DNA from: Cyanophora paradoxa CCMP329
Taxonomy: Eukaryota > Plantae > Glaucophyta
DNA length: 64,000 bases
Direction: 5' to 3'
Assembly (NCBI GenBank): GCA_004431415.1
Contig: QPMI01000662.1
Span: forward strand, 117,747-181,746
Positions 8,729 through 38,222 of the stretch are shown here, piece after piece. Each line of letters begins with the position of its first letter. Position 1 is the stretch's first letter. The translations under genes were made by a program, and so were the position numbers. Below the pieces are notes generated by a model. The model was given only the letters and a program-made list of their open reading frames with translations, made no database searches and was not told the origin of the DNA.

Positions 8729-9021
8729 ACACATAGAGAAACGCGGCGTTTAAACCCTCGGCTAATCTTAATTGATCTTGTTAATATCTCTCGTATATTT
8801 TATATCAATCAATCGATAATCTGTGTGAAATCTATCAAATTATTAAATATTTTGATTTTTGTGTATTTCATTTATAATTTATTGATGTTCTATGGTAAAT
8901 TTATCTTAATTTCGATTTGTCTTACTTAAATCAATCGTGAATTTGTATAAGTTTCCGAATAATATAACTGGATCTTAATTAGATCTTGCCTCCGGTTTAA
9001 ACGCCGCGTTTCTCTATGTGT
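8729..9021. repeat. 293-bp terminal fold-back: 28-bp perfect inverted repeat enclosing an imperfectly self-complementary AT-rich arm
   Basis: 8729-8756 ACACATAGAGAAACGCGGCGTTTAAACC is the exact reverse complement of 8994-9021. Confidence 0.9.
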
Positions 9022-9152
9022 GATTTTAACGCAATAAACGCGATTAATATGCAAATTCGATATAATCTCGATTGAAGGAACATAATTTTTGTGATATAAT
9101 CACGAATGAAGTAGTCCACCGCCCATTCTATTGTAAAACGCAAAAATTCACA

Positions 9153-9508
9153 CAGAGTTGCATTACGTCCAATTAAACAATCGATGAGATTCCGGGAAAC
9201 AAAAATGACCCCAGAGTTGCATTACGTCCAATTAAACAATCGATGAGATTGCGGGAAACAAAAATGACCCCAGAGTTGCATTATGTCCAATTAAACAATC
9301 GATGAGATTTCGGGAAACAAAAATGACCCCAGAGTTGCATTACGTCCAATTAAACAATCGATAAGATTCCTGTTAAATTTCTACTGTATCAAAAATGACC
9401 CCAGAGTTGCATTATGTCCAATTAAACAATCGATGAGATTGGATTCTGTTTTTTACTGTATCAAAATTGTGTTTCAAGTGTAACATGTCCAATTAAACAG
9501 TCGATAAT
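9153..9508 (+). repeat. 59-bp tandem repeats in the TIR (about 5 copies plus a partial one)
   Basis: Unit CAGAGTTGCATTAYGTCCAATTAAACAATCGATGAGATT.CGGGAAACAAAAATGACCC starts at 9153, 9212, 9271, 9330 and 9402. Mirrored at about 37042-37396. Confidence 0.9.
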
Positions 9509-9512
9509 CAAT

Positions 9513-9788
9513 GTGTAACAGGTGAATCCCAAGGTGTAACGGGTGTAACAGGTAAATCCCAAAGTTTTGGATTTTTCATCTCCTATGAGGAAAGTTTGGG
9601 AAACACCTGTTACACCTGTTACATGACACTATAATCAATGTAAGGAATCGAATATATTAATGCTTTGTTTGATAGATGTAACAGGTGAATCCCAAGGTGT
9701 AACAGGTGTAACAGGTAAATCCCAAAGTTTTGGGTTTTTGGCCTCCCTAGGAGCGAAGTTTGGGATTTACCTGTTACACCTGTTACAC
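9513..9788. promoter_or_regulatory. Two iteron-bearing palindromes (TGTAACAGG repeats ... CCTGTTACA), putative replication origins
   Basis: Stem-loops at about 9533-9623 and 9697-9788 with arms GTGTAACAGGTAAATCCCAAA / TTTGGGATTTACCTGTTACAC. Mirrored at 36762-37037, with a further copy at 18939-19030. Origin function is inferred. Confidence 0.55.
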
Positions 9789-10044
9789 ATGACGATATTC
9801 AATAAGACATGTTATATTTCTTCAAAATCTCAGTGTGATTAACTCGGAAATCGCGCTGCTATCTGCTTCTCCGCTTTCTCCAACCCTGAAAAGATCTCTG
9901 TTATTCTCTCATCTATCAATTTAGATATTACGGAGGTCTTACTTTCAAAAAATGATGCTCGTGGGCAACCCAAAATGATTTAAGGAAGAAGCGATAGTAT
10001 AGAGTAAAACGGGTAAAAGATTTTCTCAGACGTAATACAGTGTC

Positions 10045-10662
10045 ATGGCGTATCTCTTCGAAGGTGAGCCAATCTTCTCGGTTCCGATTGCTGAAATGCG
10101 ATTTGGCGTGAAGGATATCCTTGATCTTGCCGAAACTATTGAGTTATTGCATCAAAAGATTGGGACATACTCTTATCCTGGAATGGATCAAATGGTTTGT
10201 TTTGGTTATTTTCCAAGAAATTCTGATCGGATTTGTGCGAGAACTCGCGATGATCGGTTCTTCTATAATCATGTGAATTATAACGATCATGGTAAGTTTA
10301 GCCATCTTAATCAAGTGCGTAATGCTGAACTTGATTTCATCGTTGTTGTTAATTTTCATGATCTTCTTTTCAACACTACAAAGACTCACGAAGACGTAAT
10401 TGATGCAATTGGGATATGCTATGGACAAGAAGAACATCGTGAACGTTACTATTTCCACATTCCAAGAGATCTTCGTGCTTATCATGCTAAGTTTGAAGAG
10501 CATGGATGGAAGATTGTGAACCGAGCGACTCTACGTAAATACCTTAAACAAAATGGCGCTCGTTGGGTTCGCGAAAACAACAGATGGTATACAGAGGATC
10601 AGAATGGTGTTGTCGCTGATATCTTCAAACCATATATCCCAATAGTTAATCGTATCCAATAG
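10045..10662 (+). CDS. Hypothetical viral protein (205 aa)
   Basis: Intact ATG-started ORF. The C-terminal GARWVRENNRWY resembles a short motif seen in phage/giant-virus proteins; no firm family call. Confidence 0.6.
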   Translation: MAYLFEGEPIFSVPIAEMRFGVKDILDLAETIELLHQKIGTYSYPGMDQMVCFGYFPRNSDRICARTRDDRFFYNHVNYNDHGKFSHLNQVRNAELDFIVVVNFHDLLFNTTKTHEDVIDAIGICYGQEEHRERYYFHIPRDLRAYHAKFEEHGWKIVNRATLRKYLKQNGARWVRENNRWYTEDQNGVVADIFKPYIPIVNRIQ

Positions 10663-11548
10663 CTACAAACTCCAACTGAAACGAATTATCGATACCATTC
10701 ATATCTACAAGATCACCAAAATAATCACGAAACTCAACTGTTAATTCACGAAAAACAAGGTTTTTGTCTGTTATTTTTATGTATTCACCATGCTCTCCGC
10801 TATGGTAGATATACTTTCCGATGTCCTGACTCAATTGTAATCGCAAGATCGCGCCTTGGTTCTGCGGTTGCGATTTCGGGACTATATTGTGGTTTGATGC
10901 AAAAGAAGAGAGTTCCTTGATATGCATATACAAGTATTGCTCAGCGTTCATATCCGCCATCTTTGGACTTGTTGCTTTGTGTTGCAACGGCACTGGATCT
11001 ACACCTTCAAACGTTATTCCCCATTGTGGGTGATCAGGTGTAATTGGTCTTCCTGCATAAGATAAGTAATTCTCAGGAGCGAATACAGACCTGTTATCTT
11101 CTAAATTGTGTTGCTGGCTTACCAATAATGTTGATCCAAGACCAAGTAGTTTGGCGATTCTATTGTTTGACGCTGCTATTTCGAATGGAACGCTGCTATA
11201 AAATTCTAACTTGTATGTTGTCGGGTTGTAGTATATCTTAAAGAATGTATTTTCAAGAACTTCGTAGTTTAAACCGTAATTATATGGTTGAGTAACTCCA
11301 AAGTGTCCTTGGTTGATGTAACCACTCGGTAACGGAAATACTTGCTGGTTAAGGATGAAACCACCAATGTTATAACGAACTATAATATAATCGGTTCCAA
11401 TCGAATTATAAATGCTGTTCGGAATCTCAGCATACAAAATGCGACATTGTCGGGGTCTGGTTATTGGTGTTGTGAGTGCAACCTTATAAGAGTTTTCTTT
11501 TTGTCCCTCTGGTCGATCTCTACTATCGACATTGACAAGCCGAATCAT
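10646..11548 (-). CDS. Minor capsid protein (single jelly-roll penton) 1
   Basis: N-terminal VNVDSRDR...YKVALTTPI...ILYAEIPNSIYN and C-terminal LTVEFRDYFGDLVDMNGIDNSFQLEF fit the polinton/PLV/NCLDV penton pattern; lies in the capsid cluster. Confidence 0.75.
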   Translation of the reverse strand: MIRLVNVDSRDRPEGQKENSYKVALTTPITRPRQCRILYAEIPNSIYNSIGTDYIIVRYNIGGFILNQQVFPLPSGYINQGHFGVTQPYNYGLNYEVLENTFFKIYYNPTTYKLEFYSSVPFEIAASNNRIAKLLGLGSTLLVSQQHNLEDNRSVFAPENYLSYAGRPITPDHPQWGITFEGVDPVPLQHKATSPKMADMNAEQYLYMHIKELSSFASNHNIVPKSQPQNQGAILRLQLSQDIGKYIYHSGEHGEYIKITDKNLVFRELTVEFRDYFGDLVDMNGIDNSFQLEFVAIGYD

Positions 11549-11576
11549 TTTATTATATGGTTATAGATAAAAGAAG

Positions 11577-12581
11577 ATGCCTGTGGAATACGTTGAAGTG
11601 TCTTCCTTCAAAACGCTACCTAATCTGGATGCTCCAACATCACGATTTGTTGCGGATCTCCCAAAGACGTATGAGAATGTAAGAGCGGTTCGCCTTGTCT
11701 CCGCTGAATTCTATAACTCCATCCCACTCATTAGCGGTGAGACAGAACCTGGTGATGCAACAGTTGAGGATGCTTTTATTATCAATTTCAGCCAAAAATC
11801 CACATCCACCGGTGCAAATGCTCCTGAGATTCTATATGATAGTTGGCGTTCTATTCGACCTGGTGCAGGTCTAAAAACCCCAATCAATACTCATCAACAA
11901 CTCGTTGCCCGAATCAATAACCGTTTTGAGAATCTCTCGCCTCCTTCTGCAATTCGCTGTGGTTGGGATGTAGCCCAAAAAAAAGTTATCTTTTATGCTC
12001 CTGTGGAGTTCTATATATGCTTCTCATATGCAAAAGATCCTTCTGTTTCTGCAATCGAAAAAGCGCTACGACACGCTCGAATCTTGGGTTTGGATGCTGG
12101 ACGCTGGGGAAACAAGTTTATTAAATCACAGACCTATGGAACAGATACAAGCTCCGTTTTTACAGGTGCAAATGTAAATGGTATTATCTCGACATTCCCA
12201 ACTGAAACCTGTAAAGATAATGTCTTTTTCGTGAGAGTAAAAGAACTGGGTGACCTCGTCCAATGTGCCGATGGTCTCCTTACTGGATACTTCCATAAAC
12301 TCACGGTTCAAGATAAAGACTTTGCGGAACACGTTGTTTACAATTCGACGGAAGCAAATCCGCTGTATAAATATTATAATAAGAAACTATCACTATCGCA
12401 ATTATCGGTAGATGTTGTGAATGCTCAAAATGAATTAATTGATTTCGAGGGGCAACCTGTGCATCTGACATTCGAGATCCGCTATGGTGATGAACCTGCC
12501 GGCGATCCGATTTATGAGTATTTCAAAATGAGAATGAGAGAAACCCACCCCTTCTATCCAAATATTGCGGGATTCGCGTAA
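11577..12581 (+). CDS. Minor capsid protein (penton) 2, paralogue
   Basis: FVADLPKTYENVRAVRLVSAEFYNS...ARILGL...LSQLSVDVVNAQNELIDFEGQPVHLTFEIRY shows the same penton N- and C-terminal signature. Confidence 0.7.
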   Translation: MPVEYVEVSSFKTLPNLDAPTSRFVADLPKTYENVRAVRLVSAEFYNSIPLISGETEPGDATVEDAFIINFSQKSTSTGANAPEILYDSWRSIRPGAGLKTPINTHQQLVARINNRFENLSPPSAIRCGWDVAQKKVIFYAPVEFYICFSYAKDPSVSAIEKALRHARILGLDAGRWGNKFIKSQTYGTDTSSVFTGANVNGIISTFPTETCKDNVFFVRVKELGDLVQCADGLLTGYFHKLTVQDKDFAEHVVYNSTEANPLYKYYNKKLSLSQLSVDVVNAQNELIDFEGQPVHLTFEIRYGDEPAGDPIYEYFKMRMRETHPFYPNIAGFA

Positions 12582-12635
12582 ATTAAGGATCATTCACAGA
12601 ATTTTTATATTTTTGTATAGTAAAAGCAAAACAGA

Positions 12636-14033
12636 ATGGATGTTACCTCGACCCTTCAACGTCTTTCTCTGAAAGAGGCGCTAACAACGCCCGAGGAAGC
12701 CAAAGCGTTCTTCCTCGATAACTCGCTTATGCTTGGTCTCGAATCGAAGACGAAACCCGTTCTCGTAACTGTTAGTCCATCGACAACCTATGACAACAAC
12801 GTAGGTCAACGCGTTTCTTTCAAACTTCCCCGCTACAACTTTGTTGGTAAAATCGAACTCGCTTTCGATCTTCCCGAACTAACCGCTTTCGAAGGCGATA
12901 CCGACCTGGTGCGCAATGGTTACACCCGCCCCGTAGGTGCGCTTGTAGAGCGTCTTGAATTCTCGTATGGCTCGTATACCTACCACGTGCCGTCTGATTT
13001 CCTGGCGATTTTCCCACTGGTCTACTATTCAGAAGATCAACTGGCAAAAAAGAAGCGCTCTATGGGAATGCTCCATGGTATTCCCGCTCACGGAACCAAC
13101 CGTAAAGGTGGCGCTTTCTTCGTTGAGATTCCGGTGCCGTGGTTGAACCACTACCTACCACTTGGCGCTCTCTCGGGTGAAGCCGTTATCACTGTGTGGT
13201 TTAAGGAAGCCAACAAGGGTTACCTTGAAACTTCTTATGGTGGTCGCTCTCTTCCAGTTGTTACTGATGCTGCCGATAAATCCACCGATGATGGACTGGG
13301 AAGCGCTACCAATGTTACACTTGCTAATGTTGGTCAAAACATCACCACTGGTGAAATTACTGGGTTCGAAGTTGCTGGAACTGTTCCTCCAATGACCCAT
13401 TACATCTCCATTAAGTCTCCTCGTCTCTACATGCATGCTATTAACGTTTCAGATGAACTATTTGCTACTGTTATTGAGAAGGTTAAGACCACGGGGATGG
13501 CTATTCCCGCTCTCGATATCGGTTTCGTCGATGCAATCGGTGTTCAGGCAAAAGGTAACACTCAACCCAACCGAATCAATCTTAGCCAAATCTCCGGTCT
13601 GGTTTATGCTCTTCTTGTCTCTGTTCGCGATGCTGATGGTGTCGATACTTCCAATGGTTCTCACAGCGTCCTTAAAACGCTTGCGAATGCGAAGGATATC
13701 ACGATGACTTGTGAGATCAATGGACAGCGTCTGTATTCCACGGAGCCAATCCCGCTACTCAAAGGAGCGGAACTCATCGCCGATGCCTTCAAATGCTCAA
13801 ACATGGACAAGGAAGCAAACCGTTACGTCCTTACCGGTCTTCCATTCTGTGTTGATGGTGAGAAGGCGATTCGCAACATTGCCCAATCTGGATATGTTGA
13901 CCTTACGAACTCGTCGTCATCATTCCTTACTCTGTATCTTCCTGCTAATCGCACAATTACTGTTAACGTTCGCGCTCTCATGCATTCGTTCATTATTGTC
14001 GATAAGGACGGAATTCGCCGCATTAATCTCTAA
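12636..14033 (+). CDS. Major capsid protein, double jelly-roll (465 aa)
   Basis: GQRVSFKLPRYNFVGKIELAFDLP, LVERLEFSYG, FFVEIPVPW...LPLGAL and the C-terminal SGYVDLTN match DJR-MCP patterns. Size and position between pentons and ATPase also fit. Confidence 0.8.
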   Translation: MDVTSTLQRLSLKEALTTPEEAKAFFLDNSLMLGLESKTKPVLVTVSPSTTYDNNVGQRVSFKLPRYNFVGKIELAFDLPELTAFEGDTDLVRNGYTRPVGALVERLEFSYGSYTYHVPSDFLAIFPLVYYSEDQLAKKKRSMGMLHGIPAHGTNRKGGAFFVEIPVPWLNHYLPLGALSGEAVITVWFKEANKGYLETSYGGRSLPVVTDAADKSTDDGLGSATNVTLANVGQNITTGEITGFEVAGTVPPMTHYISIKSPRLYMHAINVSDELFATVIEKVKTTGMAIPALDIGFVDAIGVQAKGNTQPNRINLSQISGLVYALLVSVRDADGVDTSNGSHSVLKTLANAKDITMTCEINGQRLYSTEPIPLLKGAELIADAFKCSNMDKEANRYVLTGLPFCVDGEKAIRNIAQSGYVDLTNSSSSFLTLYLPANRTITVNVRALMHSFIIVDKDGIRRINL

Positions 14034-14094
14034 ACCATTATCAGTAAGATTTCGTTATTTTTATCTGTCTTTATTAAGAAGAATCTACAACACC

Positions 14095-14877
14095 ATGTCT
14101 GACGTTCCCGAATTTAATGCTGCTGAGATGATAAACCCACCATTCCGTGTCTTAGCAATTGGAAAATCTGCAACGGGTAAAAGCGAAGCGGTCAAGTATT
14201 GGCTAAAACAGCTACATGATGCGAAAAAGATAGATGTGGTTCTCGTTGTAAGTGGGACGAGTTTCAATCATTTCTGGGATAAAGTAGCAACATTGCAACT
14301 CGGTAAATGGGATGCGCCTTACATCGCTAAACTTCTCGATGAAAGACAAGAGAAAATTGAGAAAGGAGAACCCGTTAACCAATTATGTGTCGTTCTCGAT
14401 GATCTTATAGACAATGAGATAGTCGATCTAACCCGTGATAAAATTATTGGAAGTCTTTACAGCCGTGGAAGACATTCGAAAATTTCGATTATCTGCATAA
14501 CTCAGAAACTGCGTAAGGTTTCTTCAACCATTCGTGTCAATTCGGATTATGCAATGTTCCTAAGTGCCGCCAATCGCAAAGAACTGGAAGCCATTGAAGA
14601 AGAATACAATATCATGCGGGATAAAGACGCTTTCTATAAGATGTTTGAGGAATACGTTCACTCCTATCAGTTTCTCATTTGGAGTTCTGCGAATTATTCG
14701 GTGGAATACTATGTTGATAAAGCGGAACTCGTTAAAGAGTTTGGGTTTCCTCGGTTTCACAGAAAGCCCAAAAAGAAAGAAGACGAATTAAAACCACCCG
14801 AGAAGGAGGAAGCGCCAAAAGAGATAAAGAGCGCTGTTCACACGAATAAGTTGATGCGATATAAGAGGGGATTGTAA
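14095..14877 (+). CDS. A32-like (FtsK/HerA) DNA packaging ATPase
   Basis: Walker A GKSATGKS, Walker B VVLDD, and RGRHSKISIICITQ...IRVNSDY. Start taken at the in-frame ATG 14095 of ORF 13711-14877. Confidence 0.92.
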   Translation: MSDVPEFNAAEMINPPFRVLAIGKSATGKSEAVKYWLKQLHDAKKIDVVLVVSGTSFNHFWDKVATLQLGKWDAPYIAKLLDERQEKIEKGEPVNQLCVVLDDLIDNEIVDLTRDKIIGSLYSRGRHSKISIICITQKLRKVSSTIRVNSDYAMFLSAANRKELEAIEEEYNIMRDKDAFYKMFEEYVHSYQFLIWSSANYSVEYYVDKAELVKEFGFPRFHRKPKKKEDELKPPEKEEAPKEIKSAVHTNKLMRYKRGL

Positions 14878-14905
14878 AATTATCTCTGTATGTTATAAAT
14901 ATACA

Positions 14906-15637
14906 ATGCCGCCGAAACGTAGAGGTGTTCCCGCTGGTGCAATGTCATATTCCGGCGGTGAAAGTCACGGATCTCTCAACACTACACCCATGAAATTCAA
15001 CGGAATGAGCGAAGTGAAACCATCACAACAGGAAGAAGACCCCTTAAATGCGGCGTATGAAGAAGCGCCCGGTGATAAAGCGCCGCAAACCTCCCAAAGT
15101 GAGCAACTGAACATTACGCCGGAAGTCTCGAAGATGAAGGCGGTCGGTGAAGGTGCGCGCCGGATTATCGGTGCTGCCGATGATCGTGAACTTGGTCTAA
15201 AAGATCTTTCACTCGCTCGCAAGGGTGAAGGTGTTTCCAAAGAATCCGATAAGGTAATTCAATCGATGGCTGGTGAAGTTACTTACAAGGTTGCGCCAAC
15301 TCAAAACATCCACCGAATCCCGAAAGCGCAATGGGATGAGATGACCGCTAAATTAAAGGATCTGGAAGCAAAATCAAGCGCTCTTGAACAGTATGTAACT
15401 GAGAAGAAGGAGCGATCGAAAATCAAGGAAATGCTGCGCAAAGAGGTATTCCGAATGGGTATTACCGGTCTTCCCGATAAGCAGTTTATTGGTAAGAAGG
15501 AGACTCAAATTGATGAACAAGCGGTAGATGAGTTGAAGACAAAGACCCAAAAGGGAACTGTTGAACCTGGTGCTACCAAAGCGGAAGTCGACAAAGGTGT
15601 AGCTCCCACAGCATACAAGCGGAGAGTTTGGCTTTAA
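14906..15637 (+). CDS. Hypothetical charged protein (243 aa), possible virion core protein
   Basis: Intact ORF beginning MPPKRR with a coiled-coil-like segment; function is only inferred from position. Confidence 0.6.
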   Translation: MPPKRRGVPAGAMSYSGGESHGSLNTTPMKFNGMSEVKPSQQEEDPLNAAYEEAPGDKAPQTSQSEQLNITPEVSKMKAVGEGARRIIGAADDRELGLKDLSLARKGEGVSKESDKVIQSMAGEVTYKVAPTQNIHRIPKAQWDEMTAKLKDLEAKSSALEQYVTEKKERSKIKEMLRKEVFRMGITGLPDKQFIGKKETQIDEQAVDELKTKTQKGTVEPGATKAEVDKGVAPTAYKRRVWL

Positions 15638-15663
15638 TTATATATTGTTTAAAGAGGGAATCA

Positions 15664-15882
15664 ATGGAGTTTCTGAAAAAGATCATTGAGATGTTTGAGA
15701 TGCATTGCGTAACCGATTGTCACAATGACTGCTGCGATACGAAATTCGAAATGGATTTCTCAGATGGTGGAAGCGATGGAGGGCGAAGGCAATCACAAGA
15801 TTCGATAACAACTGAGACAGTCACCGTTACAGAAACAGAGACTGTCCGTCGCCGATCGTTTGCGCAAAACGATCATAAATAA
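15664..15882 (+). CDS. Small Cys-rich hypothetical protein
   Basis: MEFLKKIIEMFEMHCVTDCHNDCCDT..., in-frame ATG within ORF 15628-15882. Confidence 0.45.
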   Translation: MEFLKKIIEMFEMHCVTDCHNDCCDTKFEMDFSDGGSDGGRRQSQDSITTETVTVTETETVRRRSFAQNDHK

Positions 15883-16087
15883 TATCTTTGGTTATGGTAT
15901 CGAATGCTCGAAGAGATCTACGCCATCATACTATCGAAACGACAGATTTACGCCGTTAAATCTGCAATTGAAGAACGTAGACACCAACTGGCTTTGGTCA
16001 ACAAAAAATGACACCATAAAATACTTAAAGACATCAGGCATAATACAGAGTGGTAAAACATTTTCTCAACTACATATAAAGGGGAAC

Positions 16088-16324
16088 ATGGCGACTGTAA
16101 TTCATATAACCGAAGACATGATTAGCGTTGTCGAATTCGGCGATGAAGAAGAGGAGACCCGCGCCAATTACAAGATGAGAGATGCTCTAAGGAAGCGAAC
16201 GCTCTACAACGAAGACCCGGTTTATCGGGAGTATAAGAAGGCGCAATCGCTCGCTTCATATTATCGTCGTAAGGAGCGGGAGGGAATTGAAAACAAGTCG
16301 CGGGGACGTCCACGAAAGTATTAA
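16088..16324 (+). CDS. Small basic protein with C-terminal AT-hook-like motif
   Basis: MATVIHITED...YYRRKERE...KSRGRPRKY*; RGRP is the AT-hook core. Confidence 0.55.
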   Translation: MATVIHITEDMISVVEFGDEEEETRANYKMRDALRKRTLYNEDPVYREYKKAQSLASYYRRKEREGIENKSRGRPRKY

Positions 16325-18938: not shown

Positions 18939-19030
18939 GTGTAACAGGTGTAACAGGTAAATCCCAAACTTCGCTCCTAGGGAGGTGAAAATCCGAAAAC
19001 TTTGGGATTTACCTGTTACACCCGTTACAC
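18939..19030. promoter_or_regulatory. Internal copy of the TIR iteron palindrome directly downstream of the primase-helicase gene
   Basis: GTGTAACAGGTGTAACAGGTAAATCCCAAA (18939-18968) pairs with TTTGGGATTTACCTGTTACACCCGTTACAC (19001-19030), one mismatch. The loop closely resembles that of the TIR copy at 36762-36854. Confidence 0.65.
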
Positions 19031-19291
19031 CGAATAAAAAATAAAAAATTGACTGGTGATTTAAAAATTGAACGTGTGTCTCAGTTGAAAATGAATAACG
19101 TCAAAATGAACCAATCAATTGTGGAAGGTGATTTGGAAGAGGTTGCAAAGTTCATAAAGTATAATTGTGGTATCAATAACAGGCGGAAGAGAAACTATGT
19201 TACTATATATATTCCAAAGGAAACAACGGTGAGAATCATTAGAACTTAATGCGTTCAAACTCTAAAATAAAAATGTTCCTTTATAGCAAAG

Positions 19292-22200: not shown

Positions 22201-22571
22201 ATAGGAGCAATTACGATAAATCCCATCCTCTCGTGAGTATCAAAAACCGCATGGTTCCAGGTAAATATAAAAATGAGTTCCCAAATGCAAAGATCATGGA
22301 GTATGTGGGTCTGAGATCGAAACTCTATGCTTTCAGAACTGAGACCAACGAAAGAGTAAAGATGTCGGGGACTTCCTCGAAAGAGGTTCATTTTGATGAT
22401 TTTAAGAGATGTCTGTTCGAAGGCATCATAAAAACAGTATCAGTAACAAACAAGCGAAGGCAAGACCACAACTTATATGACTTGGAGAGCAGAAGGGTCG
22501 CTCTAAACCAACTCGATAGCAAACGGAAGATATCAGCCGACGGCATTCACAGCATTCCATTTGGTCTTTAA
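19292..22571 (+). CDS. Polinton-type protein-primed family B DNA polymerase (~1090 aa; two 1-bp frameshifts) with vOTU-like N-terminal domain and EndoVII/HNH insert
   Basis: KKATVNVKNIDGQDCFKYAILA...INLLLIE...GHY; CYIC...VRDHCHQSG...CRNCN; GLDPAHYVSAPGLSWDAML; motif A DANNLYG; motif B KLMNNAIYGK; motif C DTDS; GLRSKLY. Frameshifts at about 20292 and about 21870. Confidence 0.92.
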
Positions 22572-24130: not shown

Positions 24131-24268
24131 ATCTAAGATCCAGTTCGCGAAAGTAGCATAGATGTGTAGAGGATGCAAAGAGGATTCCGGCGATGGTCGC
24201 GGTTTCGAAAATGGATGAGTTGGTGAAGAGTTACAGCAGTGTGTATGAATTTCTTGGAATTTTGGGTT

Positions 24269-24506: not shown

Positions 24507-24966
24507 AATGACGTCACGACATATATACCGCATATATACACGTGACGTCACGACATATATACACTATATATACCAAAACCTCCGTAATGCCGGTTGACCA
24601 AGAAAAAAATGTTTGGAAAAATGTATATATACGTATACATATACATATATATAATCAAAAAAATCGGAAAAAATTCCCTCTCTTTTCTATCGTATAAATG
24701 CGCCCGTCACATCGACTCTCATGGTCGGGGCATTTATATATACCAGCGGATATATTCGTATATATCTTGTTCTCAGTGGGAAACCTATATAGAAAACATC
24801 GTTTATTGCAAGCGGAAAGCCCCCGTTATATGATACATCCCAGAATTATGTGCATTATTTATATTCTCACATACAAACATTCTATTCACACCTTCATACT
24901 TGATATATGACCATGAAACCCCATCTTGCGATGTTGCAACATTGAAAGTCTTAATAAACGCAGTTG

Positions 24967-29200: not shown

Positions 29201-32200
29201 CTTGTTAGAACTAATGAGTTTAAAGTAACCGGCACCCTCTTGGCGACGAACGTTATTATGACTACATCAACCTCAGGCACAGTATCGACTATGAGCCTTC
29301 AAGAAAAAACAAATAGCTTGGAAGAGAGTATTTATACACAACAAGAGGCAATTACAGCACTCCAAACTGAGGATGCCGCACTTGCAACGAGAATAACTAC
29401 CATAGAGAGTGATTATACTTCTTCTAATGTGGTTCAGGAATGGATTGCGCCATTAACAGCATCGAATGTAGTTCAAGAATGGTTATCAGATTACTTACCT
29501 CTCACAGGCGGGACACTGTCAAGTAATCTTACCATTTCCGGTAATCTCAAAGTGTCAAGCAACATTGAATTAGGAACTCATGGGACGGTTTTAGATGTGA
29601 CTTATGACACACCCTATTATCCAATTACATCCAACACTGACCCTGCATTTACAATTCCGAACTGTTTGATAGCTGCAAAACCATCTGGCTACGCCCATCT
29701 ACAAAATGCAGGTGGGACTACTATTGTTAACCGAGCAACATTGGCTGTTCCATTTATCCCATCATTTTCTCTGGTGGAAATTCACCATACACATCATACT
29801 ATAAAATAAATCCTTTACTAAACAATCAACTCACCTTAAACTATGGTAGTCAAACTGTTGATTTGGCAACAAATAGAGTAAATACTGTTGATTGGAGTGC
29901 TGGATTAACATTCTTCTTTGTGGGAAGTGTGAGGTCACAAAACTACACCAACGGGGTGCTTAATATCGCTAATTATGGAGTGCATGAATGTGTGTTTGGA
30001 ACGCATATAGATTGGTTTGTGTCACCACCTGTCTGTAAATGGGCATGAGTAGATATATTAATGCAGCAGCTGGAATAAACATGCAATACGGTCAGCCAAC
30101 ATATAGTAATCTCCCGACTGTGCATATGCCTTTTGAAGAATATACGAATTGGAAATGTGCATACTGGGACACCACTGTGACTTCAAATAGCATATCGTAT
30201 TCAATGAATGGAAAGCATTTAGGAACTCTTGCTGGTAACTGGCTTCCACCATCAACATTTAATAATATAGGATCAAGGCATGCATGGGGGGAAACTGCCG
30301 AACTTATTGTTTTCAACAGGGCCTTGTCTGAGATTGAAAAGCAACAGGTAAGGTTTTATATTCAACAGCTGTATGGCTTTCCTATAACTCAACCTCTTTA
30401 CTATCCTGATAATATGCGAATATCAGCAAACTATCTCTATCTAAACAACTTACACATTGGTTCAAATGCTATCATTCCAAACTATACCACTTCAAATGTG
30501 GTTCAGGAATGGATTGCTCCATTAACAGCATCGAATGTGGTTCAGGAGTGGATTGCTCCATTTACAGCTTCAAATGTGGTTCAGGAGTGGATTGCTCCAT
30601 TAACAGCTTCAAATGTGGTTCAAGAATGGATAGATCACCACACTCACACAAAGTCTCAAATAACAGATTTCGCCCATTCTCATACAAAGTCAGAGATTAC
30701 AGATTTCGCCCACAATCATTTATGGGCAGACATCACAGACAAACCATTAACATTTGCACCTGCTGCTCACACTCACACAAAGTCTCAAATAACAGATTTC
30801 GCCCATTCTCATACAAAGTCAGAAATAACAGATTTCGCCCACACTCATTTATGGGCTGACCTCACTGATAAACCATTAACATTTGCACCTGCTGCGCACA
30901 CTCACACAAAGTCTCAAATAACAGATTTCGCCCATACTCATTTATGGGCAGATCTCACAGACAAACCGTTAACATTTACTCCTACTACTCACACTCACAC
31001 AAAATCACAAATAACAGATTTCGCCCATTCTCACACAAAGTCTCAAATAACAGATTTCGCCCATACTCATTTATGGGCAGATCTCACAGACAAACCGTTA
31101 ACATTTACTCCTACTACTCACACTCACACAAAATCACAAATAACAGATTTCGCCCATTCTCACACAAAGTCAGAGATTACAGATTTTGCACACACCCATT
31201 TATGGGCAGATCTCACAGACAAACCGCTCACGTTTACTCCTTCTGCGCACACTCACACAAAGTCTCAAATTACAGATTTCGCCCATTCTCACACAAAGTC
31301 AGAGATTACAGATTTTGCACACACCCATTTATGGGCAGATCTCACAGACAAACCGCTCACGTTTACTCCTTCTGCGCACACTCACACAAAGTCACAAATT
31401 ACAGATTTCGCCCATTCTCACACAAAGTCAGAGATTACAGATTTTGCACACACCCATTTATGGGCAGATCTCACAGACAAACCGCTCACGTTTACTCCTT
31501 CTGCGCACACTCACACAAAGTCTCAAATTACAGATTTCGCCCATTCTCATACAAAGTCAGAGATAACAGACTTTGCCCACACTCATTTATGGGCAGATCT
31601 CACAGACAAACCGCTCACGTTTACTCCTTCTGCGCACACTCACACAAAGTCTCAAATTACAGATTTCGCCCATTCTCATACGAAGTCAGAGATAACAGAC
31701 TTTGCCCACACTCATTTATGGAATGACATCACAGACAAACCGTTAACCTTTGCTCCTGCTGCCCATTCTCATTTATGGAACGACATCACCGATAAACCAT
31801 TAACCTTTGCTCCTGATGCTCATTCTCATGCATGGACAACCATTACAGGTAAACCATTAACCTTTGCTCCTGATGCTCACACTCACACAAAGTCTGAAAT
31901 AACAGACTTCGCCCACAATCATTTATGGGCGGACATCACAGACAAACCGTTAGCGTTCACTCCTACTACTCACACTCACACAAAGTCTCAAATTACTGAT
32001 TTTGCCCACACTCATTTATGGGCGGACATCACAGACAAACCGTTAACATTTGCTCCTGCTGCTCACTCTCATTTATGGAACGACATCACCGATAAACCAT
32101 TAACCTTTGCTCCTGATGCTCATTCTCATGCATGGACAACCATTACAGGTAAACCATTAACCTTTGCTCCTGATGCTCACACTCACACAAAGTCAGAGAT

Positions 32201-34075
32201 TACAGATTTCGCCCACACCCATTTATGGGCAGATCTCACAGACAAACCGCTCACGTTTACTCCTTCTACACACACTCACACAAAGTCTCAAATAACAGAT
32301 TTCGCCCACACCCATTTATGGGCAGACATCACAGACAAACCGTTAACATTTGCTCCTGCTGCGCACACTCATACAAAGTCTCAAATTACAGATTTCGCCC
32401 ATTCTCACACAAAGTCAGAGATTACAGATTTTGCACACACCCATTTATGGGCAGATCTCACAGACAAACCGCTCACGTTTACTCCTTCTGCGCACACTCA
32501 CACAAAGTCACAAATTACAGATTTCGCCCACACCCATTTATGGGCAGATCTCACAGACAAACCGCTCACGTTTACTCCTTCTGCGCACACTCACACAAAG
32601 TCTCAAATTACAGATTTCGCCCATTCTCATACAAAGTCAGAGATAACAGACTTTGCCCACACTCATTTATGGAATGACATCACAAACAAACCATTAACAT
32701 TTGCACCTGCTGCTCATACTCATGATTGGATAGGTATTACAAATAAACCTTTGCTGTTTCCGCCCGATGCTCATACACACCCTTGGAGTAGTATAACAGA
32801 AAAACCATTAACATTTCCGGCAACAGCTCACACTCATTTATGGAATGATATTACAGACAAACCAACATTTGCAACTGTTGCGACAACCGGAAAATATGAT
32901 GATTTAATTAACAAGCCAACATACACAGCGCCCACAAATTTTGACGCTACAAGTGGTATTTCCACAGACCGCACAGGAGAATGGAGAGATTATTTTGGGC
33001 AACCACTTGTAGGTAACACAAGCACTTGGGCAAACACATGGATTGATGGTGATGATGATTGTAGTAGCTGTAAGATGTATTGGACTGTTCCAACAGACAT
33101 GAAATCATGTTATATCTATTATACGTGTCAGTATGACAGTAGATACTTTAATGTTGTTGGAATTGAACCATCAAACAATACTTATATTCGTTTACGAGTA
33201 AATGCCTATGCTCCTGCAATTAATCCTGTAAGAGATTTTAAACAGTTTGTTGGAATAAATTGTGAAGGACTAACCAAAGTTGGTGTTCATGGACAGAAAG
33301 GAAGAATTTATTTACCCGGTCCAATTACTGTTGGATGGAGCAAAAACCCTGCTGTAACTTCACACAGTGGTTACTGTCATTGGGATAATATCTTCGGAAA
33401 ACCAACAGCTTCAACATCTGTCGGTCCTCACTCACACAGCAAAGCAGATATCACAGATTTTGCACATACTCACACAAAGGCAAATATTACAGATTTTGCC
33501 CATACTCACACTAAATCAGAAATCTCAGATTTGCCTTCTTTTGATCCATTCACAGCCAATACGATCACAGCAAATAATACTATGTATGTAGGATCGGGTT
33601 CAATAGTAACTCCTGCATCACCCACAAACCAAGAAACATGGTTCTTCCACAATTCCGCAAACTTTTATGATAAAACACTGCTCTGTCGTGGAAATGCTTA
33701 TGCAAGAGCATTTTATGCGATGAATGCAGGAACCACAAACACAATCAGCCAAGTTCCATCTTGGTATGATATAGAAAGACGTTTCAAATCAGGAAAATAT
33801 CAAGCCACAAGTGGTGTTATAAGCGCGGGTCAAACAACACAGCATGCATATGTTTTATATTGGGACCCACCTTTTTACACTCAGACACCTGTTGTAAATG
33901 CCACACTTCAAGGAACTCCTGCAACAAACCCAGGGATGTAGATTTTAGAATTGGAATCTCAAACTCCACAGCTAACTACACAACAATCTATGTGACATTC
34001 ATAGCATCCCCTACTCTATCTGAAAGTCGAAGTATCACATGCACTATCCATTGGACATGTCATGGTATACCATAA
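26269..34075 (+). CDS. Giant fibre/adhesin-like protein (~2600 aa if frameshifts are corrected) with phage tail-fibre repeats and two LamG/ConA-like domains
   Basis: ORFs 26269-26433, 26430-27008, 26981-29809, 29863-30048, 30039-33941 and 33860-34075 join by 1-bp shifts. Motifs: DLG...WRNI; HxHxWxxIxxKPxxFPP repeats; YLPLTGGT twice; ELLCYGRTLSDTE...YLQQKYG and ELIVFNRALSEIE...YIQQLYG. Confidence 0.65.
30636..32865 (+). repeat. Coding tandem array of His-x-His repeats (HTHTKSQITDFA / HTHLWADLTDKPLTFTPSA)
   Basis: Dozens of 12-aa and 19-aa units, directly visible in both DNA and translation. Confidence 0.95.
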
Positions 34076-34124
34076 TTAACTCACAGATCGCTTTATTTTT
34101 CTAATCTTCTTAGTAAAAGAAGCA

Positions 34125-34968
34125 ATGGGTGAATACAACCGAGTCCAATTACCGGTTTACGCATTGGGTGCGCCCGCAATTCATTTCAGACAACATGAAG
34201 TATCCGATGAGATTCGTGGTATGGAATCAACAGAACGCGCAAACTCAGGAAATGCGTTCGATAAAAACAGTGTGATTCGCGTAAAAGAACTACGAGCCGA
34301 TAAGAATTCGGGTGTGGTAAAAACAACTCAATTATTGGTTACAAATGCGAATTTTCAATCAGCAAACGGAGAACCCGATGCGTATGGTGTAGATATCAAA
34401 GCATTCCAATTCGACAATACGCGAGCCGCCGCCGTTATCCGATCAGGAGGCGCTGTTATTGGTGGTGGATGCCGAGTATCCGGAATGCTTGGCTCTTCTG
34501 CTGCGTTTAACGATATTCCGGACACCTTACCTGAACATGCAGATAATCCCCAACGAATGCGTATGTTTCTTCCATGTGGAGATTCCCCATATGCTTTTGC
34601 TATCATACGAGCAAATGTAAATATAAATGATGCTACCCAACCCAAGGTATTGACGGACCTTGGAAAATGGCTGATCAACTTTTACCGAAAGCGATTTACT
34701 CCATGTGTCGCTCTCAGAATGGAGGTGTAGAAGGATATACATTCATTGTTCAAGCGGTAGGTCATGGAGGGCGTGGATGGGTTATAAGAAATCCTGCAAC
34801 ACAACCCAACACTTTTGATTTTTGGCATCTGAGGTTGGAGGTTATGATATTATGATTTATGGATATCGTAATGATGAGGCGGCATGGGCTGTTGCTAACT
34901 GCATAAATCCCGATGCTCAACTATCGAATTTCTATAATGAACCATACCCCGAAGATCCCGTCCCATAA
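34125..34968 (+). CDS. Hypothetical protein A of a paralogue pair (frameshifted)
   Basis: RVKELRADKNSGVVKTTQLLVTNANF; other frames continue DQLLPKAIYSMCR...IVQAVG...IYGYRND...EDPVP*. Confidence 0.55.
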
Positions 34969-34987
34969 TTATGTTTCGATATATTAA

Positions 34988-35832
34988 ATGGCTGCACCTG
35001 CACCACCTGAACGCATCTTAACTGCGCAACTATCGTTAGCTGCGCCCGCAAACCACGTATTACAGCATGCTATTATCGATAATATCGATGGTCTCGAATC
35101 CACAGAAATCGCACCAACTCTCAATACCTTCGGTGATACTCATATGCTGAGACTGAGAGAGTTGCGATGTGACACCAACAGTGGAGTGGTGAAAACAACG
35201 AGACTTCTTGTAACAAATGCGAACTTCAACGCTCATTATGGAGATCCCGACAGTTACAATGATGATAATAAGGTTACCAACTTTGCTTACGAAGCAAGAA
35301 GGGGCGCAATTAAATGTAGATCCGGAGGCGCTTATATTGGGACGGACTAAGAGTTGGTGGTATCATTGGAGCGCCTCTAATCGTAAATGACCAACCCAAT
35401 CCTGATGATGAAAACACGAGAATTAGAACGTATTGCCCGGGTATGAATGAACCTTACATTATTAAAATAAACACGATTATAATAAACCTGCAAACTGCCG
35501 TAATTGACATAATAGAACCGCTGGGAAACCATTACAGATATACCGAAAAGCTACCTGCGGATATTTATGCATTATGTAGGAGAACCGATGGAGCAAGACC
35601 ACGTATTACAGTTCAAGTAGTCCCCGTCGATAATTTTGGTCTTGCTTTCCATTCATTGCCTCTTTTGGATACGCAAGATGATGAATATATAATTAGGGCA
35701 ACACAACAAGGAACATTCACTGTTATTATGTATGCCGAAAGAAACGATGCAATCGCAAGAGGAAACCGCTATGGTCAATATCTAACCACAAATCTCTATA
35801 ATCCCATCGGCGGTAGCGATCCGCTACCATAA
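34988..35832 (+). CDS. Hypothetical protein B of a paralogue pair (frameshifted)
   Basis: RLRELRCDTNSGVVKTTRLLVTNANF...EKLPADIYALCR...ITVQVVP...MYAERND...SDPLP*. Confidence 0.55.
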
Positions 35833-35853
35833 ATCTACGGTATATATAGAGGA

Positions 35854-36126
35854 ATGGATGAAAAAACAAGGAGATTTATTGAGTCTGCGATAATGGTTCA
35901 TGGACTTGATAAGTTTGATTACACCGAAACTGTCTATAAAAAGGCGCAAGAGAAGGTATCTGTGAGATGCCTGCAATGTAATAAAGTCTTTCAGACTTAT
36001 GGATTTAACCATATTAAGGGGTCAGGTTGCCGACAGTGTTCTAAGAAACACTCACATGCATACAGAAAAAAAACTACATGGGGAATAGTAATAGAAGAGA
36101 AACCGATTATGTTATATTTTGATTAG
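35854..36126 (+). CDS. Small Zn-finger protein (DUF723-like repeat found in phage/giant-virus endonucleases)
   Basis: FIESAIMVHGLDKFDYTETVYKKAQEKVSVRCLQC...NHIKGSGCRQC pattern. Confidence 0.6.
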   Translation: MDEKTRRFIESAIMVHGLDKFDYTETVYKKAQEKVSVRCLQCNKVFQTYGFNHIKGSGCRQCSKKHSHAYRKKTTWGIVIEEKPIMLYFD

Positions 36127-36312
36127 AGTTTCGAAAGAGAAATGAGCATCTTTCCGCATTTACCTTTGGTTATTATGCAAGTATCAAAGCAATTCGGACA
36201 TGTCTTATGATAATGGAGCATTATGATATCGACCAACTCATACGGAAATACTTTCGCTAAGATGGTTCGCATCCTACCAATTTCGTTTTTTATTTTTCTA
36301 TATAATTCATAA

Positions 36313-36711
36313 ATGAATCATCGCGGTTCCCATGTAATGTTAGATTACAAGTTCAATCATCCATTGATGGTGGGATTGGAAAACTTGGAGACCACAACAA
36401 CGTGGTTAATGCAATTTTTACAATCTATTATACAAGAGCAAGGTATCCGAGTTGTTCACAAGCATTGCGAGATTTTCGATGGTGGTGTTTCGCCACCCGG
36501 TTTTGCTATGGTATTACTTCTTGATGAGAGCCATTTAACCGCTCATTGTTATTCGGATCAAGGAATGTTAGCGATTGATGTATTCACTTGCGGAACAGAA
36601 GCGCAAAGTAAGACCTCCGTAATATCTAAATTGATAGATGAGAGAATAACAGAGATCTTTTCAGGGTTGGAGAAAGCGGAGAAGCAGATAGCAGCGCGAT
36701 TTCCGAGTTAA
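36313..36711 (+). CDS. speD: Pyruvoyl-dependent S-adenosylmethionine decarboxylase proenzyme family (prokaryotic SpeD/SpeH type)
   Basis: GSHVMLD, PPGFAMVLLLDESHLTAHCY (E-S self-cleavage site) and AIDVFTCG. Confidence 0.85.
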   Translation: MNHRGSHVMLDYKFNHPLMVGLENLETTTTWLMQFLQSIIQEQGIRVVHKHCEIFDGGVSPPGFAMVLLLDESHLTAHCYSDQGMLAIDVFTCGTEAQSKTSVISKLIDERITEIFSGLEKAEKQIAARFPS

Positions 36712-37820
36712 TCACACTGAGATTTTGAAGAAATATAACATGTCTTATTGAATATCGTCATGTGTAACAGGTGTAACAGGTAAATCCCAAACTTCGCTCC
36801 TAGGGAGGCCAAAAACCCAAAACTTTGGGATTTACCTGTTACACCTGTTACACCTTGGGATTCACCTGTTACATCTATCAAACAAAGCATTAATATATTC
36901 GATTCCTTACATTGATTATAGTGTCATGTAACAGGTGTAACAGGTGTTTCCCAAACTTTCCTCATAGGAGATGAAAAATCCAAAACTTTGGGATTTACCT
37001 GTTACACCCGTTACACCTTGGGATTCACCTGTTACACATTGATTATCGACTGTTTAATTGGACATGTTACACTTGAAACACAATTTTGATACAGTAAAAA
37101 ACAGAATCCAATCTCATCGATTGTTTAATTGGACATAATGCAACTCTGGGGTCATTTTTGATACAGTAGAAATTTAACAGGAATCTTATCGATTGTTTAA
37201 TTGGACGTAATGCAACTCTGGGGTCATTTTTGTTTCCCGAAATCTCATCGATTGTTTAATTGGACATAATGCAACTCTGGGGTCATTTTTGTTTCCCGCA
37301 ATCTCATCGATTGTTTAATTGGACGTAATGCAACTCTGGGTCATTTTTGTTTCCCGGAATCTCATCGATTGTTTAATTGGACGTAATGCAACTCTGTGTG
37401 AATTTTTGCGTTTTACAATAGAATGGGCGGTGGACTACTTCATTCGTGATTATATCACAAAAATTATGTTCCTTCAATCGAGATTATATCGAATTTGCAT
37501 ATTAATCGCGTTTATTGCGTTAAAATCACACATAGAGAAACGCGGCGTTTAAACCGGAGGCAAGATCTAATTAAGATCCAGTTATATTATTCGGAAACTT
37601 ATACAAATTCACGATTGATTTAAGTAAGACAAATCGAAATTAAGATAAATTTACCATAGAACATCAATAAATTATAAATGAAATACACAAAAATCAAAAT
37701 ATTTAATAATTTGATAGATTTCACACAGATTATCGATTGATTGATATAAAATATACGAGAGATATTAACAAGATCAATTAAGATTAGCCGAGGGTTTAAA
37801 CGCCGCGTTTCTCTATGTGT
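36605..37820 (-). repeat. Right terminal inverted repeat (1216 bp), including the 293-bp fold-back at 37528-37820
   Basis: Reverse complement of 8729-9945; ends ...TTTCTCTATGTGT. Confidence 0.93.
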
Positions 37821-38206: not shown

Positions 38207-38222
38207 CTGCACATGCAAATTG

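What the first reader, a model, noticed from the sequence alone, without database searches (positions are those of the whole stretch)
8729..37820. Young, apparently complete 29-kb endogenous Polinton-like virus with an unusual gene set
Seen: near-identical TIRs, a perfect TSD and a full morphogenesis module (MCP, two pentons, ATPase), plus pPolB, Prim-Pol/helicase, integrase, patatin, a giant fibre and AdoMetDC. No adenain/Ulp1-type maturation protease or tyrosine recombinase was recognised. Termini are 5'-ACACA...TGTGT-3' rather than the AG...CT typical of animal Polintons. Inference: a mosaic between Mavericks and PLVs that may reactivate, possibly as a parasite of a giant virus.
Basis: partly seen in the sequence, partly recalled or inferred. 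Interest (0 to 1): 0.8.

Follow-up and report, generated by a model that had tools for sequence, protein, structure and literature searches.

The report
Intact glaucophyte provirus splits nitrate reductase
A 29-kb DNA virus with matching 1.2-kb ends is integrated inside a nitrate reductase gene of what is likely the alga Cyanophora; its genes are likely unbroken, and its capsid type and odd gene set match a virus family already catalogued in that alga, so it is a clean new example rather than a new kind of virus.

Summary
Observation confirmed. Window 8729-37820 is a 41%-GC element in 71-74%-GC host DNA, with 1217/1216-nt TIRs (0 mismatches, 1 indel) and a CGCGCC target duplication. It carries a double-jelly-roll MCP, A32 ATPase, primase-D5 helicase, pPolB, rve integrase, patatin, a ~2600-aa fibre and AdoMetDC; no Ulp1/adenain protease or tyrosine recombinase was found. 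One penton has weak fold support; the other was not folded. Fifteen single-base frameshifts break six genes plus the integrase tail; short-read contigs carry one more base at 12, so these are likely assembly errors.

The novelty claim largely fails. The closest named MCP is a Cyanophora paradoxa protein listed as a confirmed MCP by Bellas 2023 (366 MCP hits in that genome). Bulzu 2025 Table S6 counts 156 glaucophyte elements: protease 0, tyrosine recombinase 0, rve 85, lipase 89, AdoMetDC 66.

Added here: the element splits a host nitrate reductase gene that also carries its own frameshift. The scan had already noted hairpin ends and helicase-linked repeat blocks in sibling elements elsewhere in this genome. 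Reactivation and giant-virus dependence are untested. Interest 0.33.

The parts
8723..8728 (.). Left target-site duplication CGCGCC
8729..9945 (+). Left TIR, 1217 nt. First 293 nt are bounded by perfect 28-bp inverted arms (8729-8756 / 8994-9021); 59-bp internal repeats; two TGTAACA/TGTTACA blocks at the inner end
10045..10662 (+). Orphan 205-aa ORF in what looks like a variable slot; no protease family or motif found
   Evidence: no hit; contigs of other copies skip this region (table 5)
10646..11548 (-). Probable minor capsid protein (penton) 1, 300 aa
   Evidence: low-confidence model, best hits mavirus penton E 1.8e-3; one homolog at 55%
11577..12581 (+). Possible penton 2, 334 aa
   Evidence: only E 0.018 to penton 1, plus position and size; not folded
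12636..14033 (+). [quoted passage not shown]
14095..14877 (+). A32/FtsK packaging ATPase (likely start 14095; the longer ORF from 13720 overlaps the MCP gene)
   Evidence: Pox_A32 E 1e-10; Walker A and B motifs
14906..16324 (+). Three small unassigned ORFs (14906-15637, 15664-15882, 16088-16324)
   Evidence: no confident family
16531..18871 (+). Prim-Pol/D5-type superfamily 3 primase-helicase, ~780 aa; frame breaks near 16796 and 16984
18939..19031 (.). Mirror-repeat block right after the helicase, 88/93 and 83/90 identical to two blocks at the inner end of the TIR; candidate replication origin
19292..22571 (+). Protein-primed DNA polymerase B, ~1093 aa, with predicted terminal-protein and vOTU N-terminal part; frame breaks near 20291 and 21874
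   Evidence: the three pieces tile single 1253-1362-aa ORFs in IMG/VR relatives
22757..24156 (+). Retroviral-type (rve) integrase with D-D35-E; frame break near 24113 in the tail
24687..26220 (-). Patatin-like phospholipase with a probable discoidin (F5/8 type C) C-terminus, ~511 aa; frame breaks near 24975 and 24838
   Evidence: Patatin E 3e-23; F5_F8_type_C only E 0.046
26269..34075 (+). Giant fibre, ~2600 aa, with phage-tail (PTR) repeats; five frame breaks
34125..35832 (+). Two tandem paralogous ~281-aa genes (34125-34969, 34988-35832), possibly fibre-associated; three frame breaks
   Evidence: 50% identical over 110 aa; role inferred from position
35854..36126 (+). 90-aa zinc-finger protein of the kind found in HNH endonucleases
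36313..36711 (+). Stand-alone prokaryotic-type AdoMetDC/SpeD homolog with the ESH self-cleavage motif
36605..37820 (-). Right TIR, 1216 nt; 28-bp arms at 37528-37555 and 37793-37820
37821..37826 (.). Right target-site duplication CGCGCC
37821..38106 (-). Host nitrate reductase, exon upstream of the insertion (Moco domain with the CxGNRRKE motif); carries its own frameshift near 37900
   Evidence: PF00174 E 1e-13; best PDB hit nitrate reductase 2bii; contigs identical over 37795-38252
4776..8728 (-). Host nitrate reductase, part downstream of the insertion: rest of Moco domain, dimer domain, cytochrome b5, FAD- and NAD-binding domains

Best explanation
This is a 29-kb integrated Polinton-like virus with identical ends and a 6-bp target duplication, likely fully intact, likely a recent insertion, and likely a member of the large protease-less, integrase-bearing virus family already catalogued in the glaucophyte Cyanophora paradoxa. 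Shown: the ends, the gene set, the capsid fold, a multicopy family of near-identical and diverged siblings in the same organism's reads, and insertion inside a nitrate reductase gene. Inferred cycle: (1) the rve integrase inserted a linear genome, making the 6-bp duplication. (2) Once freed, the genome is copied from its ends by the pPolB, primed by its own terminal-protein domain, which the built-in vOTU protease would cut off; the ACAC end repeat would allow slide-back priming, and the 28-bp fold-back at each end would give a displaced strand a duplex end. (3) The primase-D5 helicase with the repeat block behind it is a second, swappable replication cassette. (4) MCP, penton(s) and ATPase build an uncleaved capsid; the fibre and patatin-discoidin would serve attachment and membrane entry. 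(5) With no RNA polymerase and a GC content 30 points below the host, expression most likely waits for a co-infecting giant virus, as in Tetraselmis and Cafeteria; this is the weakest step (about 0.5). (6) AdoMetDC most likely feeds host spermidine synthesis.
For: Ends and composition. Capsid fold. Family: only 1 homolog among 7991 scored candidates (P0001, 57%, accession EP00741_Cyanophora_paradoxa) and 2 in the 1.84-billion library. PMC10120064 Table S2 lists a 456-aa MCP from the same contig number as P0001, matching it by eye over the ~400 residues shown, and a 465-aa sibling matching 49 of the first 50 residues of this MCP (by eye). PMC12220804 Table S6 gives, of 156 glaucophyte elements: all 9 protease columns 0, both tyrosine-recombinase columns 0, rve 85, A32 139, PF03175 49, D5_N 40, lipases 89, AdoMet_dc 66; its text names PTR fibres in a C. 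paradoxa PLV and discoidin-patatin fusions. Intactness: 12 of 15 breaks are listed as one base put in by short-read contigs, 11 of those 12 in G/C runs that hold 15% of element bases; contigs 16818-18585 and 34109-35364 have 0 substitutions; no in-frame stops remain when read with a placeholder at each break; 92% of the interior is coding. Multicopy: 822-1284 contigs per DNA run laid at 90-100% identity, and near-identical viral contigs at roughly 8-14 times the depth of host-flank contigs (the tool warns this is not a copy number). Host gene.
Against: Published counts are per gene, not co-occurrence, and I could not check whether this copy is among the 156. The window's organism is inferred from homologs, not given. 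Contigs merge sibling copies, so the extra base may come from siblings; over 10024-10694 the only contig differs from the window at 16 places in each of three DNA runs, so this copy is not wholly represented. TIR identity can be inflated by assembly polishing. The mavirus/CroV late-promoter word TCTA (recalled) is not enriched upstream of genes (7 of 17, shuffle mean 4.5, p 0.14), whereas TATA is in 14 of 17 (uncorrected p 0.002), which fits host polymerase II as well as a helper. vOTU, terminal-protein and slide-back roles rest on motifs and recall, not on a fold. No free relative of the MCP was found in IMG/VR or metagenome contigs.
Confidence: 0.7

Rival explanations
1. An autonomous temperate nuclear virus: same element, but transcribed by host RNA polymerase II and able to replicate and spread without a giant-virus helper, using its unusually full replication kit (pPolB plus primase-helicase).
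For: It has both a polymerase and a primase-helicase; TATA lies within 50 nt upstream of 14 of 17 starts; TCTA is not enriched; TsV-N1 is reported as a lytic PLV (PMC10120064).
Against: GC is 41% against 71-74% in the host; no introns are needed although host genes are intron-dense; helper dependence is shown for Gezel-14T and Tetraselmis PLVs. The TATA count is uncorrected for word choice in AT-rich windows.
Confidence: 0.3
2. A self-synthesising transposon in practice: the family multiplies inside the nucleus by pPolB and integrase, and the capsid module is kept but rarely or never used.
For: Hundreds of related MCP copies in one genome (366); no capsid relative in viral or metagenome contigs; perfect TIRs and TSD.
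Against: A ~7.8-kb fibre gene, a lipase and capsid genes carry no in-frame stops; contigs of 90-99% identity tile the capsid region, which suggests continued selection, though dN/dS was not measured.
Confidence: 0.15
3. A decaying relic: the 15 frameshifts are real and this copy is dead.
For: The window itself has breaks in primase-helicase, pPolB, integrase tail, patatin, fibre and two small genes.
Against: All 15 are losses of one base, with no nonsense codons; 12 are filled in short-read contigs that otherwise match, some with 0 substitutions over 1.2-1.8 kb; the TIRs have 0 substitutions; Bellas 2023 reports such artefacts in EVE assemblies.
Confidence: 0.06

Closest known systems
Cyanophora paradoxa endogenous PLVs (PMC10120064 Tables S2 and S4, MCP clusters 17 and 25; PMC12220804 Table S6, 156 Glaucocystophyceae elements)
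   Same: MCP type (57% to a listed representative; 49 of the first 50 residues match another); no protease, no tyrosine recombinase; rve, A32, pPolB, D5 helicase, lipase and AdoMetDC all common; PTR fibre and discoidin-patatin fusion mentioned.
   Different: No difference in kind. The passages and tables I saw give counts but no gene map, termini or insertion site for this copy, and do not discuss AdoMetDC in the main text ('adomet' 0, 'decarboxylase' 0 occurrences).
Maverick/Polinton (Polintoviricetes; alpha-adintovirus-like pPolB already noted in C. paradoxa contigs, PMC8502044)
   Same: pPolB of the TP-vOTU type, rve integrase, 6-bp TSD, long TIRs, A32 ATPase, DJR capsid.
   Different: No vUlp1 protease; MCP does not match PF21738, which the Maverick-type relatives do; extra primase-D5 helicase; 29 kb rather than 13-25 kb; ACAC rather than AG termini (AG...CT is recalled; not found).
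Mavirus and Cafeteria EMALEs (Maveriviricetes)
   Same: Low-GC integrated element with rve, pPolB, helicase and lipase (mavirus gene set partly recalled); penton model's best hits are mavirus penton.
   Different: MCP model is closest to NCLDV capsids (E 2e-12) rather than Sputnik (E 2e-7, rank 48); no maturation protease; no enrichment of the recalled TCTA promoter word.
Tetraselmis striata PLVs reactivated by giant virus TetV-2 (10.1101/2025.10.09.676808) and Gezel-14T
   Same: Integrated algal PLVs with a conserved capsid core and exchangeable replication genes (pDNAP, D5 helicase-primase).
   Different: Helper dependence is shown there and untested here; 'integrase' does not occur in that preprint's text, and its S2x group uses a tyrosine recombinase.
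Palindrome-ended virophages and PLV of Halocafeteria seosinensis (10.64898/2026.07.28.741278)
   Same: Self-complementary sequence at the TIR ends next to the TSD.
   Different: There, short (52-nt in subtype 5) palindromes go mainly with non-pPolB elements; here 28-bp arms enclose 237 nt that fold no better than shuffles (z -0.7), in a pPolB-bearing element.

Membership tests
Endogenous Polinton-like virus (Preplasmiviricota) | [quoted passage not shown] | tested here: met
   Foldseek PDB E 1.9e-12, BFVD E 1.3e-14, model pLDDT 51; Atlas feature hits to Capsid_N clusters, recognition score below its threshold
Endogenous Polinton-like virus (Preplasmiviricota) | [quoted passage not shown] | tested here: inconclusive
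   Penton 1: best hits mavirus penton E 1.8e-3 on a pLDDT-43.5 model; penton 2 not folded
Endogenous Polinton-like virus (Preplasmiviricota) | A32/FtsK packaging ATPase | tested here: met
   PF04665 E 9.8e-11
Endogenous Polinton-like virus (Preplasmiviricota) | 14-40 kb, TIRs, integration enzyme, TSD | tested here: met
Cyanophora paradoxa PLV family (Bellas 2023; Bulzu 2025) | MCP within 25% identity clustering of the published C. paradoxa representatives | tested here: met
   57% over the full length to P0001, which matches Table S2 gene_47449 by eye and contig number; which of clusters 17 and 25 it falls in was not determined
Cyanophora paradoxa PLV family (Bellas 2023; Bulzu 2025) | No maturation protease, no tyrosine recombinase; rve, lipase and AdoMetDC frequent | tested here: met
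   against Table S6
Cyanophora paradoxa PLV family (Bellas 2023; Bulzu 2025) | This copy is one of the catalogued elements | not testable with these tools
Maverick/Polinton (Polintoviricetes) | pPolB plus rve integrase | tested here: met
Maverick/Polinton (Polintoviricetes) | vUlp1/adenain cysteine protease gene | tested here: not met
   No hit; the one orphan of suitable size has no hit. A very divergent protease cannot be excluded
Maverick/Polinton (Polintoviricetes) | Maverick-type MCP (PF21738) | tested here: not met
   0 Pfam families at E 0.1, while L001, L003, L004 MCPs score E 3e-41 or better
Virophage (Maveriviricetes) | Sputnik/mavirus-type MCP and protease | tested here: not met
   No PF21915/PF22031 hit (L006 shows the models work); NCLDV capsids outrank Sputnik
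Virophage lifestyle | Replication depends on a co-infecting giant virus | not testable with these tools
   Needs infection experiments

The most novel reading that the evidence does not exclude
The glaucophyte family is an active, helper-inducible virus lineage with two replication systems in one genome: terminal-protein priming at fold-back ends, and a primase-helicase with its own origin copied into the TIRs. Its stand-alone AdoMetDC, present in 66 of 156 catalogued elements but not discussed in the text I searched, is a metabolic counter-measure that drains SAM or makes its inhibitory decarboxylated form to keep the virus unmethylated, or has switched to ornithine/arginine decarboxylation as in some phages. 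This copy would also show such a virus landing in a core metabolic gene, leaving the strain without this nitrate reductase.
Probability: 0.15. Interest if true: 0.65.

Novelty: new member of a known kind. Interest (0 to 1): 0.33.

Why it matters
Glaucophytes are a primary-plastid lineage, and Bellas 2023 estimates about 7% of the C. paradoxa genome is viral of this sort. In my library searches the family appears only as table rows and side remarks (3 papers hold 'Cyanophora' and 'Polinton-like'; 1 holds 'Cyanophora', 'endogenous viral' and 'PLV'). This copy gives a full gene map, shows that its apparent decay is likely an assembly artefact, and offers three tractable questions: what a lone AdoMetDC does for a small virus, whether the helicase-linked repeat block is an origin, and whether the host has lost nitrate reduction. 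It does not define a new kind of virus.

Tried and rejected
No whole genome is held, so there was no direct copy-number or TSD survey. Expression: no RNA holder was listed. RNA-guessed run X23 gave 4 short contigs at depth 3-4.4 and 95-99% identity. X21 and X24 covered a spliced host gene at 40350-44000 but next to none of 33050-37441. None of this counts for or against expression. No MCP relatives in viral contigs (0 of 155 pattern matches) or metagenome contigs (0 of 305). The orphan ORF 10045-10662 gave nothing; I considered it as a hidden protease and found no support. Introns or programmed frameshifting as the cause of the breaks were rejected, because DNA contigs carry the extra base. 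A mavirus-like TCTA promoter is not enriched. A poxvirus-like full hairpin telomere was rejected: the z -10.9 fold of 8729-9022 comes from the 28-bp arms, and the inner 237 nt are not better than shuffles (24 and 43 of 100 shuffles fold as well). An H-lectin domain at the fibre end was not detected by Pfam. No tRNA. The wide structural search on penton 1 never ran. Empty-site alleles: none among the loose ends shown, but 1020 rows were hidden, and the junction contigs hold only 26 nt of the element, under the tool's 31-nt bridging rule. Paper searches for PLV plus 'S-adenosylmethionine decarboxylase' and Polinton plus 'slide-back' returned 0. CpG is not depleted in the element or flanks (o/e 1.02-1.09), which gives no support for the anti-methylation idea.

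Full report
OBSERVATION. Positions 8729-37820 (29,092 nt) are 41% GC between flanks of 71% and 74%. The TIRs align over 1217 and 1216 nt with no substitution and one indel in a homopolymer run; the hexamer CGCGCC lies on both sides; the ends read ACACATAGAG...CTCTATGTGT. With 0 substitutions in 1216 nt the Poisson upper bound on TIR divergence is about 0.25%, although assembly polishing could inflate this identity.

GENES. Pfam and PHROGs support the A32 ATPase, D5-type primase-helicase, pPolB, rve integrase, patatin, PTR-repeat fibre, an HNH-type zinc finger and AdoMetDC. The integrase shows D-D35-E, and the polymerase shows motifs A, B and C plus a Cys and a His motif where a vOTU domain is expected. 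PMC11161782 (passages) describes this TP-vOTU-polymerase layout and proposes that vOTU releases the terminal protein; the assignment here is by motif, not by fold. The 465-aa MCP candidate has no Pfam hit, but its model (3-sequence alignment, pLDDT 51) matches iridovirus and PBCV-1 capsids at E 2e-12, with 126 PDB matches at E<=0.001. Penton 1 is weakly supported (six best hits are mavirus penton chains, best E 1.8e-3, pLDDT 43.5). Penton 2 was not folded and resembles penton 1 only at E 0.018. No Ulp1/adenain protease or tyrosine recombinase was hit, and the only orphan of protease size returned nothing in four searches.

FRAMESHIFTS. The window shows 15 places where a gene continues one frame back: primase-helicase 2, pPolB 2, integrase tail 1, patatin-discoidin 2, fibre 5, and the two small paralogs 3. 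All are losses of one base, with no nonsense codons. Twenty listed runs of one organism hold about 70% of the sampled words. Eleven of the 12 lie in G or C runs, which hold 15% of element bases. At three sites only part of the depth shows the extra base. Read with a placeholder at each break, the genes are open: about 780, 1093, 466, 511, 2603, 281 and 281 aa. The three pPolB pieces tile single 1253-1362-aa ORFs in IMG/VR relatives. The breaks are therefore most likely assembly errors, as Bellas 2023 also reports for such elements. Because contigs merge siblings, this shows intact frames in the near-identical subfamily rather than strictly in this copy; over 10024-10694 the only contig differs from the window at 16 places in each of three DNA runs.

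FAMILY. The MCP has one homolog among 7991 scored candidates (57%), recorded as EP00741_Cyanophora_paradoxa, and two in the 1.84-billion library. PMC10120064 (main text parts 1-4 of 7; supplement rows of Tables S1, S2, S4) reports 366 MCP hits in C. paradoxa in two unnamed new clusters (17 and 25 by my column count). Its Table S2 lists as confirmed MCPs a 456-aa protein that matches P0001 by eye and contig number, and a 465-aa protein that matches 49 of the first 50 residues of this MCP but differs further on, so it is a sibling. PMC12220804 (passages; supplement Table S6) counts 156 glaucophyte elements: 0 in all nine protease columns, 0 tyrosine recombinase, rve 85, A32 139, PF03175 49, D5_N 40, PIF1 34, lipases 89, AdoMet_dc 66. 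AdoMet_dc also occurs in cryptophyte PLVs (10, 17 and 45 elements). Its text mentions a PTR-PTR-H-lectin fibre in a C. paradoxa PLV and discoidin-patatin fusions. PMC8502044 (passages) had noted alpha-adintovirus-like proteins in C. paradoxa contigs. The counts are per gene, and I could not see the deposited element sequences, the cut part of the Bellas spreadsheet or bioRxiv supplements, any of which may list this copy. In the laid runs, 822-1284 contigs per DNA run match at 90-100%, and near-identical viral contigs run at roughly 8-14 times host-flank depth in a 2019 and a 2024 run; the tool warns this is no copy number, and GC bias would raise it.

MOSAIC. The polymerase's eight IMG/VR relatives (32-39%) sit beside Maverick-type PF21738 capsids (3 loci), a Sputnik-type capsid (1 locus) or no recognised capsid (54 of 67 ORFs scanned, L005 not scanned). 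This element joins that polymerase-integrase module to a Cyanophora-type capsid, which supports the mosaic reading. Such exchange is reported for Halocafeteria and Tetraselmis elements (passages).

ENDS AND ORIGIN-LIKE BLOCKS. The first 293 nt of each TIR are bounded by perfect 28-bp inverted arms. The inner 237 nt do not fold better than shuffles, so this is a fold-back stem, not a full hairpin telomere. A 93-nt mirror-repeat block directly after the helicase is 88/93 and 83/90 identical to two blocks at the inner TIR end. I saw both features before consulting the scan's earlier notes; those notes report similar features in sibling elements of this genome and supplied the origin reading (unchecked AI notes). 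Terminal palindromes are published for Halocafeteria elements.

HOST SITE. The two flanks hold consecutive parts of one PF00174 domain (profile 28-79 on the right, 117-149 on the left). The left flank continues with dimer, cytochrome b5, FAD- and NAD-binding domains, and the best PDB match of the right-flank exon is nitrate reductase. By frame continuity the virus lies 5 nt inside a ~72-nt GC-AG intron; the intron is inferred, though GC-AG introns are seen in RNA contigs of the next gene. Contigs of two DNA runs match 37795-38252 exactly, at a depth like other host contigs, but include only 26 nt of the element. They also confirm a separate frameshift about 70 nt upstream in the same exon, so the gene is probably dead regardless, and the order of events is unknown. 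Whether another copy exists could not be tested; PMC6400420 (passages) says only that sampled glaucophytes have nitrate-assimilation genes.

MECHANISM. Shown: ends, TSD, gene set, capsid fold, multicopy family and insertion site. Inferred from the families involved: rve-mediated integration of a linear genome; protein-primed replication from the ends (slide-back on the AC repeat is recalled, and not found); a second primase-helicase cassette with its own likely origin; assembly without a maturation protease; fibre and patatin-discoidin for entry. Helper dependence is by analogy with Tetraselmis, Gezel-14T and mavirus, and by the GC contrast and lack of an RNA polymerase. Against it, the recalled mavirus promoter word is not enriched and TATA is (14 of 17 windows, uncorrected). 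AdoMetDC most likely supplies decarboxylated SAM to host spermidine synthesis. PMC9992855 (passages) shows bona fide AdoMetDC activity for algal giant-virus homologs and ornithine or arginine decarboxylase activity for some phage homologs, so the substrate needs an assay.

VERDICT. A real, very likely intact and young endogenous PLV, and a new member of a family already catalogued with this gene content. It fails membership of Mavericks proper (no vUlp1, no PF21738 capsid) and of virophages proper, while it may work like the latter. Interest 0.33; the novel case (dual replication, AdoMetDC as a counter-measure, loss of nitrate reduction) has probability about 0.15.

Noticed in passing
window 37821-38106 and 4776-8728 (minus strand): The virus sits in a full NAD(P)H nitrate reductase gene, by frame continuity 5 nt inside a ~72-nt GC-AG intron, with the TSD spanning the exon end. 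GC-AG introns of 57-70 nt are seen in RNA contigs of the neighbouring host gene.
   Followed up: partly
window ~37893-37905 and ~38065-38075: The same nitrate reductase exon has a small palindromic insertion that shifts the frame, matched exactly by short-read contigs of two DNA runs, and possibly a second, in-frame one. Both look like DNA-transposon excision footprints, so the gene may have been dead before the virus arrived.
   Followed up: partly
window 38220-38400 and 39260-39740: Three tandem ~60-nt repeats, and a ~480-nt segment with inverted ends and high contig depth (MITE-like), lie upstream in or before the nitrate reductase gene.
   Followed up: no
window 24270-24600: Degenerate CCCCCAGTTATCATA tandem array followed by a duplicated palindromic GACGTCACGAC/ATATATA block between the convergent integrase and patatin genes.
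   Followed up: no
window 17337-18670: Summed contig depth over the helicase is about a third of that over MCP and pPolB in three DNA runs, and one contig matches it with 0-2 substitutions; consistent with siblings carrying a different helicase in this slot (Table S6: D5_N 40, PIF1 34 of 156).
   Followed up: partly
window 37723: Contigs in two DNA runs match the last ~98 nt of the right TIR but continue inward with unrelated GC-rich sequence: possibly short non-autonomous elements that use the same ends.
   Followed up: no
L006 (IMG/VR): A pPolB 38% identical to this one sits beside a Sputnik-type virophage MCP, while L001, L003 and L004 pair the same polymerase class with Maverick-type MCPs.
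   Followed up: partly
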